Below are positions 48,050-60,625 of a stretch of DNA of 64,000 bases, one piece after another. The stretch is from Escherichia coli (GTDB taxonomy: Bacteria > Pseudomonadota > Gammaproteobacteria > Enterobacterales > Enterobacteriaceae). Numbering within the stretch: position 1 is the stretch's first letter; each line of letters begins with the position of its first letter. The translations under genes and the position numbers were made by a program. Location of the stretch: NCBI RefSeq assembly GCF_009931435.1, contig NZ_CP043414.1; one strand, given 5' to 3'. The notes beneath the pieces are model-generated. The model made no database searches and was not told the origin of the DNA. It saw nothing but the letters and a program-made list of their open reading frames with translations.

Positions 48050-48169
48050 ATGCCTGGCAGTTCCCTACTCTCGCATGGGGAGACCCCACACTACCATCGG
48101 CGCTACGGCGTTTCACTTCTGAGTTCGGCATGGGGTCAGGTGGGACCACCGCGCTAAGGCCGCCAGGCA
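48050..48169 (-). rRNA. rrfE: 5S ribosomal RNA
   Basis: 120 nt reverse complement of 5S rRNA (TGCCTGGCGGC...CTGCCAGGCAT); operon identity from flanking metA and purH. Confidence 0.95.
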
Positions 48170-48252
48170 AATTCTGTTTCATCAGACCGCTTCTGCGTTC
48201 TGATTTAATCTGTATCAGGCTGAAAATCTTCTCTCAATCCGCCAAAACATCT

Positions 48253-51167
<2,915 letters not shown>

Positions 51168-51360
51168 TCACAACCCGAAGATGTTTCTTGCGATTCATCA
51201 TCGTGTTGCGAAAATTTGAGAGACTCACGAACAACTTTCGTTGTTCAGTGTTTCAATTTTCAGCTTGATCCAGATTTTTAAAGAGCAAATATCTCAAACG
51301 TCACCCGAAGATGAGTTTTGAGATATTAAGGCAGGTGACTTTCACTCACAAACCAGCAAG

Positions 51361-51436
51361 TGGCGTCCCCTAGGGGATTCGAACCCCTGTTACCGCCGTG
51401 AAAGGGCGGTGTCCTGGGCCTCTAGACGAAGGGGAC
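51361..51436 (-). tRNA. gltV: tRNA-Glu (UUC) in the 16S-23S spacer
   Basis: Reverse complement reads GTCCCCTTCGTCTAGAGGCCCAGGACACCGCCCTTTCACGGCGGTAACAGGGGTTCGAATCCCCTAGGGGACGCCA. Confidence 0.95.
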
Positions 51437-51521
51437 GTATCAGTCTGCTTCGCAAGACGCCTTGCTTTTCACTTTCTATCAGACAATCTGTGTGAGCACT
51501 GCAAAGTACGCTTCTTTAAGG

Positions 51522-53063
<1,542 letters not shown>

Positions 53064-55280: not shown

Positions 55281-56570
55281 ATGAAAGTATTAGTCATTGG
55301 TAACGGCGGGCGCGAGCACGCGCTGGCCTGGAAAGCGGCCCAGTCGCCGCTGGTTGAGACTGTTTTTGTTGCTCCGGGTAACGCAGGTACTGCGTTGGAA
55401 CCCACGCTGCAAAACGTCGCTATCGGCGTGACCGATATCCCGGCGCTGCTGGATTTCGCACAAAACGAAAAGATCGATCTGACCATCGTCGGCCCGGAAG
55501 CACCGCTGGTGAAAGGCGTGGTCGATACTTTCCGCGCCGCCGGGCTGAAAATCTTCGGCCCAACCGCAGGTGCCGCGCAACTTGAAGGCTCGAAAGCGTT
55601 TACCAAGGATTTCCTGGCCCGCCATAAGATCCCTACGGCGGAATACCAGAACTTCACCGAGGTCGAACCTGCGCTGGCGTATCTGCGTGAAAAAGGCGCG
55701 CCCATCGTTATTAAAGCTGACGGTCTGGCTGCCGGGAAAGGCGTTATCGTGGCGATGACGCTGGAAGAAGCGGAAGCGGCTGTTCACGATATGCTGGCGG
55801 GCAACGCTTTTGGCGACGCGGGTCATCGCATCGTTATCGAAGAGTTCCTCGATGGCGAAGAAGCGAGCTTTATCGTGATGGTGGACGGCGAGCATGTGCT
55901 GCCGATGGCCACCAGTCAGGACCACAAACGCGTAGGTGATAAAGATACCGGGCCGAACACGGGCGGGATGGGCGCTTACTCCCCTGCACCAGTGGTGACC
56001 GATGAGGTTCATCAGCGCACCATGGAACGTATCATCTGGCCAACCGTGAAAGGCATGGCAGCGGAAGGCAGCACCTACACCGGTTTTCTCTACGCGGGCC
56101 TGATGATCGACAAACAGGGCAATCCGAAGGTTATCGAATTTAACTGCCGCTTTGGCGATCCGGAAACCCAGCCGATTATGCTACGCATGAAGTCCGATCT
56201 GGTTGAGCTTTGCCTGGCGGCCTGTGAAGGTACGCTTGACGAGAAAACGTCCGAGTGGGATGAACGCGCTTCTCTCGGCGTGGTGATGGCTGCGGGTGGA
56301 TATCCGGGCGATTACCGCACCGGCGATGTGATCCACGGCCTGCCGCTGGAAGAAGCGTCTGACGGCAAAGTGTTCCACGCGGGCACAAAACTGGCGGATG
56401 ACGAGCAGGTGGTAACCAGCGGCGGGCGCGTACTGTGCGTCACCGCGCTGGGTCATACCGTGGCAGAAGCGCAGAAACGCGCTTATGCCTTAATGACCAA
56501 TATCCATTGGGACGATTGCTTCTGCCGGAAGGATATCGGCTGGCGCGCCATCGAACGCGAGCAGAACTAA
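55281..56570 (+). CDS. purD: phosphoribosylamine-glycine ligase
   Basis: 429 aa from MKVLVIGNGGREHALAW, 9 bp after the purH stop. Confidence 0.97.
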   Translation: MKVLVIGNGGREHALAWKAAQSPLVETVFVAPGNAGTALEPTLQNVAIGVTDIPALLDFAQNEKIDLTIVGPEAPLVKGVVDTFRAAGLKIFGPTAGAAQLEGSKAFTKDFLARHKIPTAEYQNFTEVEPALAYLREKGAPIVIKADGLAAGKGVIVAMTLEEAEAAVHDMLAGNAFGDAGHRIVIEEFLDGEEASFIVMVDGEHVLPMATSQDHKRVGDKDTGPNTGGMGAYSPAPVVTDEVHQRTMERIIWPTVKGMAAEGSTYTGFLYAGLMIDKQGNPKVIEFNCRFGDPETQPIMLRMKSDLVELCLAACEGTLDEKTSEWDERASLGVVMAAGGYPGDYRTGDVIHGLPLEEASDGKVFHAGTKLADDEQVVTSGGRVLCVTALGHTVAEAQKRAYALMTNIHWDDCFCRKDIGWRAIEREQN

Positions 56571-57892
56571 CGCGACAGTTTTGCCAATAGCGTTTTGCGC
56601 GTAATCCCTAACTGACGGGCGGCTTCGGTTTTGTTGCCGCCCGTTTTCTCCAGCGCCGCCAGAATCACTTCTTTTTCGACTTCCACCAGCGGCTGAATAT
56701 CCTGACTTTGCACCAGCGGGATCGGCGTACTGGCAATCGCCAGCGGCAGCTCGCGTTCGGAAATATATTCCCCGGTCAGCAGCACCACCGCCCGTTCCAC
56801 CGCGTTTTCCAGTTCACGAATATTTCCCGGCCAGTCGTAGTGAATCAGCAGATCCATCGCCTGGGGCGTAAACCCTTTTACCGCCTTGCGATTGCGTTCG
56901 GCAAAGCGCTGCAGAAAATGACCAGCCAGCAGAGGAATATCTTCCCGCCGCTGACGCAGCGGCGGTACTTCAATCGCCACCACATTCAGGCGATAGTAGA
57001 GATCCTGGCGAAAACGCCCGGCATTCACCTCAGCGGCAAGATCGCGATGAGTCGCCGCAATCAGCCGGACATCAACCGAGATAGTCTGATTGCTGCCGAC
57101 ACGCTGAACTTCGCGCTCCTGAATCGCACGCAGCAGACGAACCTGCATCATCGGCGAGATATCGCCAATTTCATCGAGAAACAGCGTGCCGCCGTCCGCC
57201 TCAACAAAGCGCCCTTCCCGCCGTTTGTCGGCTCCGGTAAACGCCCCTTTTTCGTGACCGAACAATTCAGATTCCAGTAAGGATTCGTTGAGTGCCGCAC
57301 AGTTGAGCGTTACCAGCGGCTTTTCACTCCGTGCGCTACTGGCGTGAATCGCCCTGGCGACCAGCTCTTTACCGGTGCCGGAATCGCCGTGGATCAGCAC
57401 CGTGGCTTCCGATGGCGCGACGAGGGCAATTTCACTGAGCAGGTGCTGCATCGCCGGGCTTTTACCGACCATACCGAACTGGCTGGCAGACACCGCAGGC
57501 GTTTCAGCATCAACACTGTGCGTATGCGCAAGCGCCTTTTCCAGGGTTGCCTGCAGGTTATCGAAATCCAGCGGCTTGATGAGATAATCCAGCGCCCCGG
57601 TTTTCAACGCCTCTACCGCCGTCTCGACGCTGGAGTACGCGGTCATAATCAGTACCGGAATTGCCGGATTTAACGCTTTGATCTCTTTCAGCGTGGCGAT
57701 GCCATCCATCTCTGCCATTCGCACATCACAAAGCACAAGATCAAAAACCTGTTCCCGCACTTGCTCCAGCGCCTGTCGCCCGCTGTTCGCCAGCGCGACG
57801 TTATAGCCCCAGCCGCGCAGCAATGCCTGCAAGATAGTGCAGTGGCTAATGTCATCATCCACCACCAGAATATCGATATTATCGTGCGTCAT
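56567..57892 (-). CDS. zraR: sigma54-dependent response regulator (NtrC family)
   Basis: 441 aa; receiver domain, AAA+ domain with GESGTGKE-like Walker A (GDSGTGKE) and GAFTGA, C-terminal HTH. Confidence 0.96.
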
Positions 57893-59265
57893 CCTTGTGG
57901 GTCCTTACGCGTAATATTGACCGGAAGCCAGAGGGTGAACGTTGCACCTTTCCCCTCCTGGCTTACGACCTGAATTGTACCACCGTGTTGTTCAACAATA
58001 TTATGCACAACCGCCAGCCCCAGTCCGGTGCCTTCGGCTTTGGTGGTGAAGTACGGGGTGAAGATGGCTTCAAGCTGATCCGCCGCAATTCCCTTACCGC
58101 TGTCGGTTACGCTTATTTTAACGCCTGCGCTGCTTTCGTTGGCCGTCACGCTAATCACGCCATGCTGACCAATAGCCTGAATAGCATTGAGATAGAGATT
58201 CAACAGGACCTGAGTCAGTCGGTCCGGATCGGCCTGTATCTCCGGCAATGCGTCGTTGGCGGTAAAGCGTAATTGGATCTCCCTACTGTTTGCATCCTGG
58301 CTTACCAGTTGTAATGAGTGGTTAATCAGCGTGTTGAGATCCACCGCCTTCAAAGCAAGATGCGTTGGCTTAACCAGCTCCAGCAGCTCGCTTACCACGC
58401 GGTTTAAACGGTCGGCTTCTTTCGCCATCACCTGCGCCAATTGATGCGCTTCTCCTCCTGCTGGTGCGCGTTCGGCAAAATATTTCGCCAGCCCTTTAAT
58501 CGAGGAAAGCGGGTTACGGATTTCATGGGCGACGCCTGCGGCCAGATGTCCCAGCGCCACCAGCTTCTCTTTGCGCTTCATTTCATCCTGTAACAGCTGG
58601 CGCGAGCGAAGATAGCGGCGATACCAGAAGAATGACAACACGCTTGCCAGCAAGACCGTCGCCAGGGCGAAGAGGATAATCAGGGTGTTTCTCTGCTCAC
58701 GCTCTTCGGCACTCACAATGTTACTGGCGTCGAAAGCGATAAAAATTGCTTGTGGTGTCGCGGCATACTGCTGCATATGGCGCATCCGGTGCATTCCAGC
58801 AGCAAACATCGGTTGAAACTGGCGATAAATTTCCAGAACAGGCTCGCCGTCTGCGCTATCGATCCGCCGCCACGCTTCTTCGTCTCCCGGATGTAACTGC
58901 TGCATTTCCTGCGGGGAATAAAGCTGTTTTCCCACCATGCCGGAGTTGCTATGCATCACGATTGTTCCTTGTTCATCCGTGACCGCAAACCAACGCACTC
59001 CTGGCTGCCCAGCCATTTCTTCCAGTAAAGCCTGCTGCTGCGCATGATGCATGCGCATCCCCATACCGACGCGCGAGCCGGATTCGAGAGCGCGGATAAG
59101 TACACTGCCTTTTTCCAGCAGAGTTTGTCTGGCGGCGGCAGTCTCGCGCCCATAATCGCGAATCACGGTCACTGCAAACAACCCCACCAGTCCAACAATG
59201 ACTACGGGAAGGATCGCGCTTAACCATTTTGCTAAGGCATCTTTTGATCGCTGCATAAAACGCAT
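57889..59265 (-). CDS. zraS: sensor histidine kinase
   Basis: 458-aa ORF; H-box HEIRNPLSSIKG; 4-bp overlap with zraR. Confidence 0.95.
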   Translation of the reverse strand: MRFMQRSKDALAKWLSAILPVVIVGLVGLFAVTVIRDYGRETAAARQTLLEKGSVLIRALESGSRVGMGMRMHHAQQQALLEEMAGQPGVRWFAVTDEQGTIVMHSNSGMVGKQLYSPQEMQQLHPGDEEAWRRIDSADGEPVLEIYRQFQPMFAAGMHRMRHMQQYAATPQAIFIAFDASNIVSAEEREQRNTLIILFALATVLLASVLSFFWYRRYLRSRQLLQDEMKRKEKLVALGHLAAGVAHEIRNPLSSIKGLAKYFAERAPAGGEAHQLAQVMAKEADRLNRVVSELLELVKPTHLALKAVDLNTLINHSLQLVSQDANSREIQLRFTANDALPEIQADPDRLTQVLLNLYLNAIQAIGQHGVISVTANESSAGVKISVTDSGKGIAADQLEAIFTPYFTTKAEGTGLGLAVVHNIVEQHGGTIQVVSQEGKGATFTLWLPVNITRKDPQG

Positions 59266-59296
59266 CTTCTTCTTTGCCTGTTCATCCCTTTTTGAC

Positions 59297-59312
59297 AGCA
59301 GAAATCATGCCA
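59297..59312 (-). promoter_or_regulatory. sigma54-type promoter for zraSR
   Basis: Minus-strand TGGCATGATTTCTGCT (GG at -24, GC at -12). Confidence 0.6.
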
Positions 59313-59363
59313 TCTTTTATTAGCACTTACCCTGCGCTTTAACACAAAGGCTTAAGTTTCAAT

Positions 59364-59409
59364 GAGTAAAAATGACTCGCCACACACAGCAGGCGAGTCA
59401 TTTTTACTC
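59364..59409. promoter_or_regulatory. Palindromic enhancer (ZraR binding sites) between zraP and zraS
   Basis: Perfect 18-bp inverted repeat gagtaaaaatgactcgcc / ggcgagtcatttttactc separated by 10 bp. Confidence 0.8.
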
Positions 59410-59451
59410 GTTTATCATGTCATATTGCCCGTCATATCAGCGTTTCGCCGT

Positions 59452-59467
59452 TGGCACGAAAGATGCA
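59452..59467 (+). promoter_or_regulatory. sigma54 promoter of zraP
   Basis: TGGCACGAAAGATGCA about 36 bp upstream of the zraP ATG. Confidence 0.8.
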
Positions 59468-59502
59468 ATACCCGAAGTAAGACAACCACTGGAGGATTAA
59501 CC

Positions 59503-59922
59503 ATGAAACGGAACACGAAAATTGCCCTGGTGATGATGGCGCTTTCAGCAATGGCGATGGGATCGACATCTGCATTTGCTCACGGCGGACACGGTATGTG
59601 GCAGCAAAATGCCGCGCCTTTGACCAGCGAACAACAGACAGCGTGGCAGAAAATCCATAATGACTTTTACGCTCAAAGCAGCGCACTGCAACAGCAACTG
59701 GTGACGAAGCGTTATGAATACAATGCCCTGTTAGCCGCGAACCCACCGGATAGCAGCAAAATTAACGCGGTCGCCAAAGAGATGGAGAATTTGCGTCAGT
59801 CGTTAGATGAGTTACGGGTGAAACGAGATATTGCGATGGCTGAAGCGGGTATTCCGCGCGGTACCGGAATGGGTTACGGCGGCTGCGGTGGTGGCGGTCA
59901 TATGGGTATGGGCCACTGGTAA
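59503..59922 (+). CDS. zraP: zinc-resistance-associated periplasmic protein
   Basis: ATG at 59503 with GGAGG Shine-Dalgarno; signal peptide MKRNTKIALVMMALSAMAMGSTSAFA; Gly/His/Met-rich C-terminus. Confidence 0.93.
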   Translation: MKRNTKIALVMMALSAMAMGSTSAFAHGGHGMWQQNAAPLTSEQQTAWQKIHNDFYAQSSALQQQLVTKRYEYNALLAANPPDSSKINAVAKEMENLRQSLDELRVKRDIAMAEAGIPRGTGMGYGGCGGGGHMGMGHW

Positions 59923-59923
59923 A

Positions 59924-60625
59924 TCAGAACGTTTTCTCATTGGGTTGCCAGCGACAGAAATCAGAGTTTGCCACTAACAGTAATTGCGAACCTTCGGGCG
60001 CTTCCAGCCATGCCACGCTGACATCAACAGAAGAGCGGCTCTGGCGGCGCTCGATATGCGCTATCGCCTGCGAATCTAAATCAGGTTTAATGGTTTGCCC
60101 TTCGCAGGTGGTCACGGTCTGTTCCATCGCATGCCAGCGCCCCTGGCGCAGCACGACTCTCCCCTGACGTAAGGCATCGCTAATCTGGCGGATCTGATCA
60201 GCACGATAACGGTATAAATCGATTTGGTCGTTAGAAAGCTGCTGCTTTTCCCCATCGGATTCACGTTGCATAAAGCTCAGATCGCCGCGATCGTCAAAAC
60301 GCGCGCGAATATTCACCGGCGGTTTGCTGTAAACATTGATATTGATAAGCGTGAGGTTATCGCCCTGCCAGCGATACTCTCGCGTCGTGGTATCGCCACT
60401 GCGCCACGGGCTAAACACAGCAAGCAGATGCACATTATTGCCACTGTCTTTTCGCCAGATACGTACCGCGCCCTGATCTTCAGCAAATCCACTGGCGGTA
60501 AAGGGAGGAAGTGAAGAGTTGTGACTACAGGCAGTGAGAAACAGAGCGCCCGCCAGCATCAATGATCGACGCCAGAAAGACAAAAGGGGTGAAACCACCC
60601 CTTCGTTAAAACTGTTCACTGCCAC
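59924..60625 (-). CDS. yjaH: uncharacterized DUF1481-type protein
   Basis: 233-aa ORF between zraP and hupA. Confidence 0.85.
   Translation of the reverse strand: MAVNSFNEGVVSPLLSFWRRSLMLAGALFLTACSHNSSLPPFTASGFAEDQGAVRIWRKDSGNNVHLLAVFSPWRSGDTTTREYRWQGDNLTLININVYSKPPVNIRARFDDRGDLSFMQRESDGEKQQLSNDQIDLYRYRADQIRQISDALRQGRVVLRQGRWHAMEQTVTTCEGQTIKPDLDSQAIAHIERRQSRSSVDVSVAWLEAPEGSQLLLVANSDFCRWQPNEKTF

What the first reader, a model, noticed from the sequence alone, without database searches (positions are those of the whole stretch)
59266..59502. Compact divergent sigma54 control region with a perfect 18-bp inverted-repeat enhancer
Between zraS (minus) and zraP (plus) lies a perfect inverted repeat, gagtaaaaatgactcgcc N10 ggcgagtcatttttactc (59364-59409). 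It is flanked by a sigma54 -24/-12 element on each strand: TGGCACGAAAGATGCA toward zraP and TGGCATGATTTCTGCT toward zraS. This is a textbook bidirectional enhancer. The ORF track's 186-aa zraP starting at 59362 would translate through the enhancer and is an artefact; the real start is the ATG at 59503.
Basis: partly seen in the sequence, partly recalled or inferred. Interest (0 to 1): 0.3.

Follow-up and report, generated by a model that had tools for sequence, protein, structure and literature searches.

The report
Known zraP–zraSR sigma-54 control region

Summary
The 237-bp zraS/zraP spacer (59266-59502) holds a perfect 18-bp inverted repeat (59364-59381 / 59392-59409). It also holds two divergent -24/-12 elements (59312-59297 minus, 59452-59467 plus). 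The repeat is the longest perfect one in the 64-kb window. The two promoters are the best new sigma-54 PWM hits.

The window is E. coli, and this is the published zraP-zraSR (hydHG) control region. K-12 sigma-54 ChIP-seq peaks lie on both promoters. The main ZraR ChIP-exo peak maps to 59373-59405, inside the repeat. gSELEX gives this spacer as ZraR's single strong target. The zraP start at 59503 is also confirmed.

One refinement comes from 26 spacers in five genera. The conserved unit is a 15-bp box, GRGTAAAAATGACYC, present twice in inverted orientation, 31 bp centre to centre. The 16 bp between the boxes vary freely. The 18-bp perfection is strain-level; K-12 has 17/18. Each box has its own GRGT-N7-ACYC dyad, so two ZraR dimer sites are more likely than one long palindrome. 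Escherichia lacks exactly 11 bp (one helical turn) between the boxes and the zraP promoter.

Verdict: real, correctly interpreted, already known, low interest.

The parts
56567..57892 (-). zraR: NtrC-family sigma-54 activator (response regulator) that binds the enhancer
   Evidence: ORF. Pfam gives Response_reg + Sigma54_activat + AAA_lid_14 + HTH_8. A GAFTGA motif is visible in the translation. PDB 1ojl ZraR matches at E=1.8e-177. RefSeq name.
57889..59265 (-). zraS: sensor histidine kinase, first gene of the zraSR operon
   Evidence: ORF. Pfam gives HisKA + HATPase_c. RefSeq annotation.
59286..59286 (-). Predicted zraSR transcription start, 21 nt before the ATG
   Evidence: Position is 19 bp downstream of the motif centre, by the rule of PMC4591121. 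It is predicted only and not mapped.
59297..59312 (-). zraSR sigma-54 promoter, TGGCATGATTTCTGCT (-24 GG, -12 GC)
   Evidence: Found. PWM score 17.6. Identical to K-12 ChIP-seq site OS39. 14 of 16 columns are invariant across 21 taxa.
59327..59349 (.). Conserved block AACCCTG-N8-CACAAAC, at about -41 to -63 of the zraSR promoter; function unknown
   Evidence: Seen in the alignments (mean majority fraction 0.79, against 0.51-0.65 for its flanks). It has no IHF consensus and no sigma-70-like match.
59364..59378 (+). ZraR box L, GAGTAAAAATGACTC (consensus GRGTAAAAATGACYC). Its centre is at -107 for zraP and -85 for zraS
   Evidence: 11 of 15 columns are invariant. It overlaps the K-12 ZraR ChIP-exo peak mapped to 59373-59405.
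59379..59394 (.). 16-bp segment between the boxes. It varies freely except for the GC just 5' of box R; the length is fixed
   Evidence: The box centre-to-centre distance is 31 bp in 25 of 26 spacers.
59395..59409 (-). ZraR box R, the same box in inverted orientation (GAGTCATTTTTACTC on the + strand). Its centre is at -76 for zraP and -116 for zraS
   Evidence: 13 of 15 columns are invariant.
59410..59451 (.). Unconserved linker between the enhancer and the zraP promoter. It is 11 bp shorter in Escherichia than in Citrobacter, Salmonella, Kosakonia and Pluralibacter
   Evidence: 0 of 42 invariant columns. In Salmonella LT2 the two promoters are 11 bp further apart.
59452..59467 (+). zraP sigma-54 promoter, TGGCACGAAAGATGCA
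   Evidence: Found. PWM score 17.5. K-12 ChIP-seq site OS38 differs by one spacer base. 12 of 16 columns are invariant.
59478..59478 (+). Predicted zraP transcription start, 25 nt before the ATG
   Evidence: Same rule as for zraS. It is predicted only.
59491..59495 (+). Shine-Dalgarno GGAGG, 7 nt before the zraP ATG
   Evidence: Sequence. A GGAG-type SD is present at this spot in most of the loci, with A-substituted variants in a few (GAGAGG, TGAGG, GGATAA).
59503..59922 (+). zraP coding sequence: 139 aa, Sec-type signal peptide MKRNTKIALVMMALSAMAMGSTSAFA, Metal_resist domain
   Evidence: RefSeq start. Pfam PF13801. Conservation begins at ATGAAACGGAA. The upstream frame is closed in other genera.

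Best explanation
The spacer is the zinc- and envelope-stress-responsive control region of the ZraPSR system. RNA polymerase with sigma-54 sits in closed complexes on two divergent -24/-12 promoters, one for zraP and one for zraSR. Between them lie two 15-bp ZraR boxes in inverted orientation, 31 bp (three helical turns) apart.

Once ZraS has phosphorylated ZraR, ZraR dimers occupy the boxes and assemble into an AAA+ ring. The intervening DNA loops out, and the GAFTGA loops contact sigma-54. ATP hydrolysis then opens either promoter. This gives strong induction of the periplasmic protein ZraP and positive autoregulation of zraSR.

Because the two boxes are inverted copies, the enhancer has a twofold axis near 59386/59387. 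It therefore presents the same face to both promoters.

Shown by data: the sequence elements, their conservation, sigma-54 and ZraR occupancy of the orthologous K-12 DNA, and ZraR-dependent expression. Inferred: one dimer per box, ring assembly, looping, and the exact start sites.
For: Sequence elements and their statistics.

Orthology: there are no indels against K-12 across the spacer.

Sigma-54 ChIP-seq peaks on both promoters in K-12: PMC4591121. Sigma-54-dependent expression of both operons, with sigma-54 ChIP-chip binding at both promoters, in Salmonella: PMC3844500. Both listed as known sigma-54 promoters: PMC2831329.

ZraR ChIP-exo peak_9 (signal/noise 73) maps to 59373-59405. gSELEX recovered this spacer in 81 of 86 clones: PMC8249747. 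[quoted passage not shown] The zraR deletion effects on zraP and zraS are.

ZraR domain make-up is, and the ZraR entry 1ojl, which holds six chains, is.

Phylogenetic footprint over 26 spacers from 5 genera: only the two promoters and the two boxes are near-invariant. Box spacing is fixed at 31 bp. The distance to the zraS promoter is fixed to within 2 bp, and the distance to the zraP promoter changes by 11 bp.

For one dimer per box: the two positions that vary recurrently in a box are 2 and 14 (three single-taxon changes aside). These are dyad mates, and all but one change there is a transition, so both half-sites read GRGT. In box L they covary as A/T versus G/C (covariation score 0.122 against 0.091, reached by 7 of 500 shuffles). 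The GT-N7-AC geometry equals that of single NorR dimer sites (PMC2831303). Arms centred 31 bp apart are too far apart for one Fis-type HTH dimer (inference).
Against: Neither transcription start is experimentally mapped in any source I could read, and EcoCyc listed both promoters as 'predicted' in 2015.

All occupancy and expression data come from K-12 or Salmonella, not from this strain.

The covariation supporting one dimer per box rests on few independent events. The tool itself warns that related sequences can beat the shuffles without any constraint. Box R shows uncompensated changes (G/T four times, A/C twice).

No IHF consensus was found to help bend a loop of only 76-116 bp.

A second ZraR ChIP-exo peak lies on the zraP start codon (59493-59518), where there is no box.
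Confidence: 0.9

Rival explanations
1. The 46-bp element is one long palindrome, with each 18-bp arm acting as a half-site for a single symmetric ZraR oligomer. There would be no independent dimer site in each arm.
For: In this window the arms are perfectly complementary over 18 bp. The core AAAAATG inside each box is not itself symmetric. Box R carries uncompensated changes at positions 2 and 14.
Against: Inter-arm complementarity is not maintained. Pair 14-33 is broken in 13 of 25 spacers. Pairs 16-18 with 29-31 are broken in 5-9 of 25. There is no covariation above the shuffles. The arm centres are 31 bp apart. The positions that vary recurrently are intra-box dyad mates. Related activators use separate dyad sites with the same GT-N7-AC geometry.
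Confidence: 0.25
2. The inverted repeat acts as a nucleic-acid structure, such as a hairpin terminator, an RNA element or a cruciform, rather than as a protein-binding site.
For: A perfect 18-bp stem could in principle fold.
Against: It lies upstream of both predicted start sites, so neither zra transcript includes it. There is no T-run and no terminator-like hit. No Rfam family matches the spacer. Conservation acts on each arm's sequence, with no compensatory inter-arm changes. ZraR occupies it in vivo.
Confidence: 0.02
3. The region is coding: a 186-aa ZraP isoform starts at 59362 and the repeat is only codon sequence.
For: The frame is open from 59362. The 186-aa product has been deposited for at least one E. 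coli genome (P0002).
Against: RefSeq and K-12 start zraP at 59503. The frame is closed 1-6 codons upstream of the ATG in every genus other than Escherichia and in E. albertii, and an 11-bp indel breaks it. A strong SD and a signal peptide begin at 59503. The promoter lies downstream of 59362.
Confidence: 0.01
4. The boxes are mainly the target of a different regulator, for example a Cpx- or zinc-responsive factor, and ZraR acts elsewhere in the spacer.
For: Each box contains GTAAA, which I recall as resembling a CpxR half-site. A second ZraR ChIP-exo peak lies away from the boxes.
Against: The strongest ZraR ChIP-exo peak is centred on the boxes. gSELEX with purified ZraR selects this spacer. 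No tandem GTAAA-N5-GTAAA arrangement is present.
Confidence: 0.03

Closest known systems
E. coli K-12 zraP-zraSR (hydHG) intergenic regulatory region (Leonhartsberger et al. 2001, PMID 11243806; EcoCyc/RegulonDB promoters zraPp and zraSp)
   Same: It is orthologous DNA. The spacer is 237 bp with no indels and about 97% identity. The boxes are identical, the zraS promoter is identical, and the start-codon offsets match. Sigma-54 and ZraR occupancy were measured on it.
   Different: K-12 has a T instead of a C at the innermost arm position, giving 17/18. It also has two other substitutions in the inter-box segment and one in the zraP promoter spacer, G where this window has A. None of these touches a conserved position. 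I recall the 2001 abstract describing 'two inverted repeats separated by a 14 bp spacer', which fits 16-bp arms here. That paper is not held, so I could not check it.
NorR enhancer of the norR-norVW divergent region
   Same: It is an NtrC-family activator encoded next to its target. The enhancer sites have a GT-N7-AC dyad core, each taken to bind a dimer that contributes to a hexamer (PMC2831303). The ZraR boxes contain GT-AAAAATG-AC.
   Different: NorR needs three sites and IHF, and only the norV side is sigma-54 dependent. Here there are two boxes, no IHF consensus, and sigma-54 promoters on both sides.
NtrC enhancer at glnAp2 (my own recollection, not checked here)
   Same: Two dyad-symmetric dimer sites lie about three helical turns apart upstream of a -24/-12 promoter. 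A phosphorylated response regulator oligomerises on them and acts by looping.
   Different: The NtrC sites serve one promoter and have a different sequence. Here one enhancer, symmetric as a whole, serves two divergent sigma-54 promoters.
hycA-hypA divergent sigma-54 promoter pair (FhlA)
   Same: Two divergent sigma-54 ChIP-seq sites lie in one short spacer (OS27 and OS28, motif centres 128 bp apart).
   Different: It uses a different activator and a different enhancer sequence, CATTTCGTACGAAATG. I did not analyse it here.

Membership tests
Sigma-54 (-24/-12) promoter | GG and GC dinucleotides exactly 10 bp apart within a TGGCAC-N5-TTGCW-like sequence | tested here: met
   Both sites match. 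Leave-out PWM scores of 17.5 and 17.6 lie above the training median of 15.6.
Sigma-54 (-24/-12) promoter | Occupied by sigma-54 holoenzyme in vivo | not testable with these tools
   Published for the orthologous K-12 sites (ChIP-seq OS38 and OS39) and for Salmonella LT2 (ChIP-chip). Not measured in this strain.
Sigma-54 (-24/-12) promoter | Transcription starts about 12 nt downstream of the -12 GC and depends on rpoN | not testable with these tools
   Only predicted starts are available. Sigma-54-dependent expression is reported in PMC2831329 and PMC3844500. No mapped start site was found in the held literature.
Bacterial enhancer (UAS) of an NtrC-family activator | Repeated dyad-symmetric sites about 70-150 bp upstream of the -24/-12 promoter | tested here: met
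   Box centres lie at -76/-107 (zraP) and -85/-116 (zraS). Each box has a GRGT-N7-ACYC dyad.
Bacterial enhancer (UAS) of an NtrC-family activator | Bound by the cognate activator | not testable with these tools
   Published for K-12: the ChIP-exo peak maps to 59373-59405, and gSELEX selects the spacer.
Bacterial enhancer (UAS) of an NtrC-family activator | The cognate activator has a receiver domain, an AAA+ sigma-54 interaction domain with GAFTGA, and a Fis-type HTH | tested here: met
   Pfam hits PF00072, PF00158 and PF02954 on the adjacent zraR product. GAFTGA is present in the translation.
Bacterial enhancer (UAS) of an NtrC-family activator | Sequence and spacing under purifying selection across species | tested here: met
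   11-13 of 15 box columns are invariant, against 0 of 42 in the neighbouring linker. Box spacing is 31 bp in 25 of 26 spacers.
Bacterial enhancer (UAS) of an NtrC-family activator | Removing the sites abolishes activation | not testable with these tools
   This needs reporter assays with box mutants.
Intrinsic terminator or structured RNA | GC-rich stem followed by a T-run, or a match to an RNA family, with compensatory changes in the stem | tested here: not met
   There is no terminator-like site, no Rfam match in the spacer, and no inter-arm covariation.

The most novel reading that the evidence does not exclude
Two details appear not to be spelled out in the literature I could read.

(a) The enhancer is two self-symmetric ZraR dimer sites (GRGT-N7-ACYC). 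Their inverted arrangement makes one twofold-symmetric enhancer for both promoters. Helical phasing looks constrained: Escherichia lost exactly 11 bp on the zraP side, while every other distance stayed essentially fixed (box spacing within 1 bp, zraS side within 2 bp).

(b) A further conserved block (59327-59349, about -41 to -63 of the zraSR promoter) could be the site of an unidentified factor. Such a factor might bend the DNA or set the much weaker, partly ZraR-independent expression of zraSR relative to zraP.
Probability: 0.3. Interest if true: 0.25.

Novelty: already known. Interest (0 to 1): 0.1.

Why it matters
It matters little beyond annotation. It confirms that the long 186-aa zraP ORF, still present in some deposited annotations, is wrong. 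It also places the promoters and ZraR boxes precisely in this strain. The comparative refinement (15-bp boxes, fixed 31-bp spacing, a one-turn indel, an extra conserved block) could guide the design of zraP-based zinc and lead biosensors. It also gives simple mutational tests of how one enhancer serves two sigma-54 promoters.

Tried and rejected
- Leonhartsberger et al. 2001 (PMID 11243806), the primary paper on the HydG/ZraR binding site, is not held. Phrase searches for its wording found nothing. Only secondary statements could be cited.
- Searches for mapped transcription starts found none. A guessed PMC id for an E. coli dRNA-seq paper was not held. A Salmonella Cappable-seq paper gives only expression changes.
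- IHF consensus WATCAANNNNTTR: no match with one mismatch or fewer in the K-12 locus. In the window spacer there were only two-mismatch matches, none conserved.
- A sigma-70-like promoter that could explain basal zraSR expression: none in 59150-60050.
- Rfam: nothing in the spacer.
- Additional ZraR boxes elsewhere in the 64 kb: only chance-level three-mismatch hits.
- The shuffle line at the end used a wrong threshold because of a selection bug and should be ignored. One search replaces it.
- The genome-contig scan with a single ZraP protein reached only Escherichia, Citrobacter and Salmonella. Kosakonia, Pluralibacter and S. enterica were added through protein look-ups. Klebsiella and Enterobacter were not sampled.
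This report is the same with that field added.

Full report
**What is in the sequence.** The window is E. coli chromosome. A 901-bp stretch around the finding matches 5,420 of 5,426 complete RefSeq E. coli genomes, the best at 99.7%. Gene order is purH, purD, zraR(-), zraS(-), zraP(+), yjaH(-), hupA(-). The finding's coordinates, 59266-59502, are exactly the 237-bp spacer between the zraS ATG (59265, minus) and the zraP ATG (59503).

The repeat reads gagtaaaaatgactcgcc (59364-59381), then 10 nt, then ggcgagtcatttttactc (59392-59409). It is 18/18 complementary. It is the longest perfect inverted repeat in the 64 kb; the next unrelated one has 13-nt arms, and the expectation for 18 or more is about 3e-5.

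TGGCACGAAAGATGCA (59452-59467, +) and TGGCATGATTTCTGCT (59312-59297, -) are the only matches of TGGCAYN6TGCW in the window. That loose pattern alone is not significant, since 23 of 100 shuffles reach two matches. I therefore built a PWM from 40 published intergenic sigma-54 ChIP-seq motifs, leaving out the two zra sites. The zra sites score 17.6 and 17.5, ranks 2 and 3 of 128,000 positions. Rank 1 is the pspG promoter, a training sequence, and rank 4 scores 13.1. Simulated sequence gives 0.145 hits at that level per 64 kb, or 5e-4 per 237-bp spacer.

**What it is.** K-12 MG1655 aligns to the spacer without any indel, so published K-12 coordinates transfer linearly.
- Sigma-54 ChIP-seq peaks OS38 (zraP) and OS39 (zraS) lie on these two motifs. 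Their predicted starts are 25 and 21 nt before the start codons (PMC4591121). That places them at window 59478 (+) and 59286 (-).
- Both promoters are listed among known sigma-54 promoters, at -51 and -47 from the ATGs, the offsets seen here (PMC2831329).
- In Salmonella LT2 both promoters bind sigma-54, and both operons are expressed in a sigma-54-dependent way when driven by a promiscuous activator (PMC3844500).
- ZraR ChIP-exo in zinc gives its strongest peak at K-12 4201786-4201818, which is window 59373-59405, inside the repeat.
- Deleting zraR lowers zraP by 12.7 log2 units and zraS by 3.2 log2 units (PMC7657598 supplement).
- Genomic SELEX with purified ZraR returns this spacer as the single strong target, in 81 of 86 clones (PMC8249747).
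- The adjacent zraR product has the receiver, sigma-54-interaction and Fis-type HTH domains and a GAFTGA motif. It matches the solved ZraR structure 1ojl.

**The zraP start.** RefSeq and K-12 start zraP at the position equal to 59503. A GGAGG lies 7 nt upstream, and the product begins with a typical signal peptide. Sequence conservation across genera starts abruptly at ATGAAACGGAA. The frame upstream of that ATG is closed within 1-6 codons in E. albertii and in all Citrobacter, Salmonella, Kosakonia and Pluralibacter loci. The 59362 ATG is also upstream of the zraP promoter. The 186-aa ORF is therefore an artefact, although it has been deposited as a protein for at least one E. coli genome.

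**Comparative anatomy.** I collected 26 zraS-zraP spacers from Escherichia species, Citrobacter species, Salmonella, Kosakonia and Pluralibacter.

Four islands are nearly invariant:

| Element | Invariant columns |
|---|---|
| zraS promoter | 14 of 16 |
| Box L, 59364-59378 | 11 of 15 |
| Box R, 59395-59409 | 13 of 15 |
| zraP promoter | 12 of 16 |
| Linker from box R to the zraP promoter | 0 of 42 |
| Segment between the boxes | 2 of 16 |

The conserved unit is thus a 15-bp box, GRGTAAAAATGACYC, present twice in inverted orientation. The centres are 31 bp apart in 25 of 26 spacers and 32 bp in the other.

The three inner base pairs that make the arms 18 bp long here are not conserved as pairs; they are broken in 5-9 of 25 spacers. 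K-12 itself has 17/18. No complete RefSeq genome is identical to the window over 59355-59418.

There is no covariation between the arms. This argues against selection on a hairpin and for selection on each box as a protein site.

Within a box, the two positions that vary recurrently are 2 and 14; three single-taxon changes aside, all other box positions are fixed. Positions 2 and 14 are dyad mates, and all but one change there is a transition, so both half-sites read GRGT. In box L they covary, with A/T 9 times, G/C 10 times and mixed pairs 6 times. The score exceeds all but 7 of 500 shuffles. However, the events are few and phylogenetically clustered, so I treat this as weak support.

The geometry GT-N7-AC is the same as that of individual NorR dimer sites (PMC2831303). 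I therefore favour two ZraR dimer sites three helical turns apart, at about 0.6 for this sub-claim. The alternative is one long palindrome.

**Distances.** Box centres lie at -85 and -116 from the predicted zraS start, to within 2 bp, in every genus. From the predicted zraP start they lie at -76 and -107 in Escherichia (-75 and -106 in E. albertii), but at about -87 and -118 in all other genera. The difference is 11 bp, about one helical turn, within an otherwise unconserved linker. The Salmonella LT2 promoter coordinates show the same 11-bp difference. This fits an enhancer that must face the promoter from a given side of the helix, which is an inference. No IHF consensus was found.

**Mechanism and rivals.** Best explanation, confidence about 0.9 for the overall scheme:
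1. Zinc or envelope stress activates ZraS, which phosphorylates ZraR.
2. ZraR dimers occupy the two boxes and assemble an AAA+ ring.
3. The ring contacts closed sigma-54 complexes on either side by looping.
4. ATP hydrolysis opens the promoters.

The result is strong zraP induction and zraSR autoregulation. Steps shown by data are the elements, their conservation, occupancy in K-12 and Salmonella, and ZraR dependence. Ring assembly, looping, dimer stoichiometry and the start sites are inferred.

The rivals are poorly supported: a structural hairpin or terminator, a long ZraP isoform, and another regulator's site.

**Comparison and novelty.** This is the same locus as the published K-12 zraP-zraSR (hydHG) control region, so the finding is already known. 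I recall the 2001 abstract describing two inverted repeats separated by a 14-bp spacer, which fits 16-bp arms here. That paper is not held and the wording is unverified. A 2016 review lists the ZraR enhancer sequence in Salmonella as not known (PMC4987338). The box consensus and spacing given here may therefore be a small useful addition, but they are not a new kind of system.

**Limits.** Start sites are predicted only. All occupancy and expression data are from other strains. Sampling covers five genera. The shuffle line at the end is invalid and is replaced.

Noticed in passing
window 59327-59349: A conserved block, AACCCTG-N8-CACAAAC, lies between the zraSR -24 element and box L, at about -41 to -63. 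It is conserved across Escherichia, Citrobacter and partly Salmonella, while its flanks are not. It matches no IHF or sigma-70-like consensus, and no function is assigned.
   Followed up: partly
window 59493-59518: A second, weaker ZraR ChIP-exo peak in K-12 (peak_8, 4201673-4201698) maps onto the zraP ribosome-binding site and start codon, about +15 to +40 of the predicted start. There is no ZraR box there. It may be an indirect cross-link through the loop to RNA polymerase.
   Followed up: no
window 59410-59451 (indel near 59424): Escherichia spacers are exactly 11 bp shorter than those of Citrobacter, Salmonella, Kosakonia and Pluralibacter between box R and the zraP promoter. That is one helical turn. 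All other element distances are essentially fixed (box spacing within 1 bp, zraS side within 2 bp).
   Followed up: yes
window 57889-59265 (zraS) and the spacer: In published K-12 data, zraS expression in plain LB does not depend on ZraR (log2 change -0.02). In the same medium zraP depends on it strongly (-5.6). This implies a basal zraSR promoter that the simple sigma-70 scan did not find.
   Followed up: partly
window 59920-59926 and 56567-56570: The zraP and yjaH stop codons are convergent and 1 bp apart, with no intrinsic terminator detected. The zraR and purD 3' ends overlap by 4 bp. Both pairs are listed as convergent 'excludons' in PMC12288877.
   Followed up: partly
window 910-926 (minus strand): The pspG sigma-54 promoter, TTGGCATGATTCTTGTA, is the top PWM hit in the window. 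It is identical to the published K-12 site OS40.
   Followed up: no
window 59503-59922: ZraP here is 139 aa, with a shorter C-terminal Gly/His-rich tail than the 141-aa K-12 protein. The 186-aa extended ORF from 59362 exists as a deposited protein for E. coli 53638.
   Followed up: no
window 48052-53063, 27956-28152, 14336-14406, 25751-26037: Rfam finds a complete rrn operon on the minus strand (16S, tRNA, 23S, 5S). It also finds a lysine riboswitch, two naRNA4 copies and STnc430.
   Followed up: no
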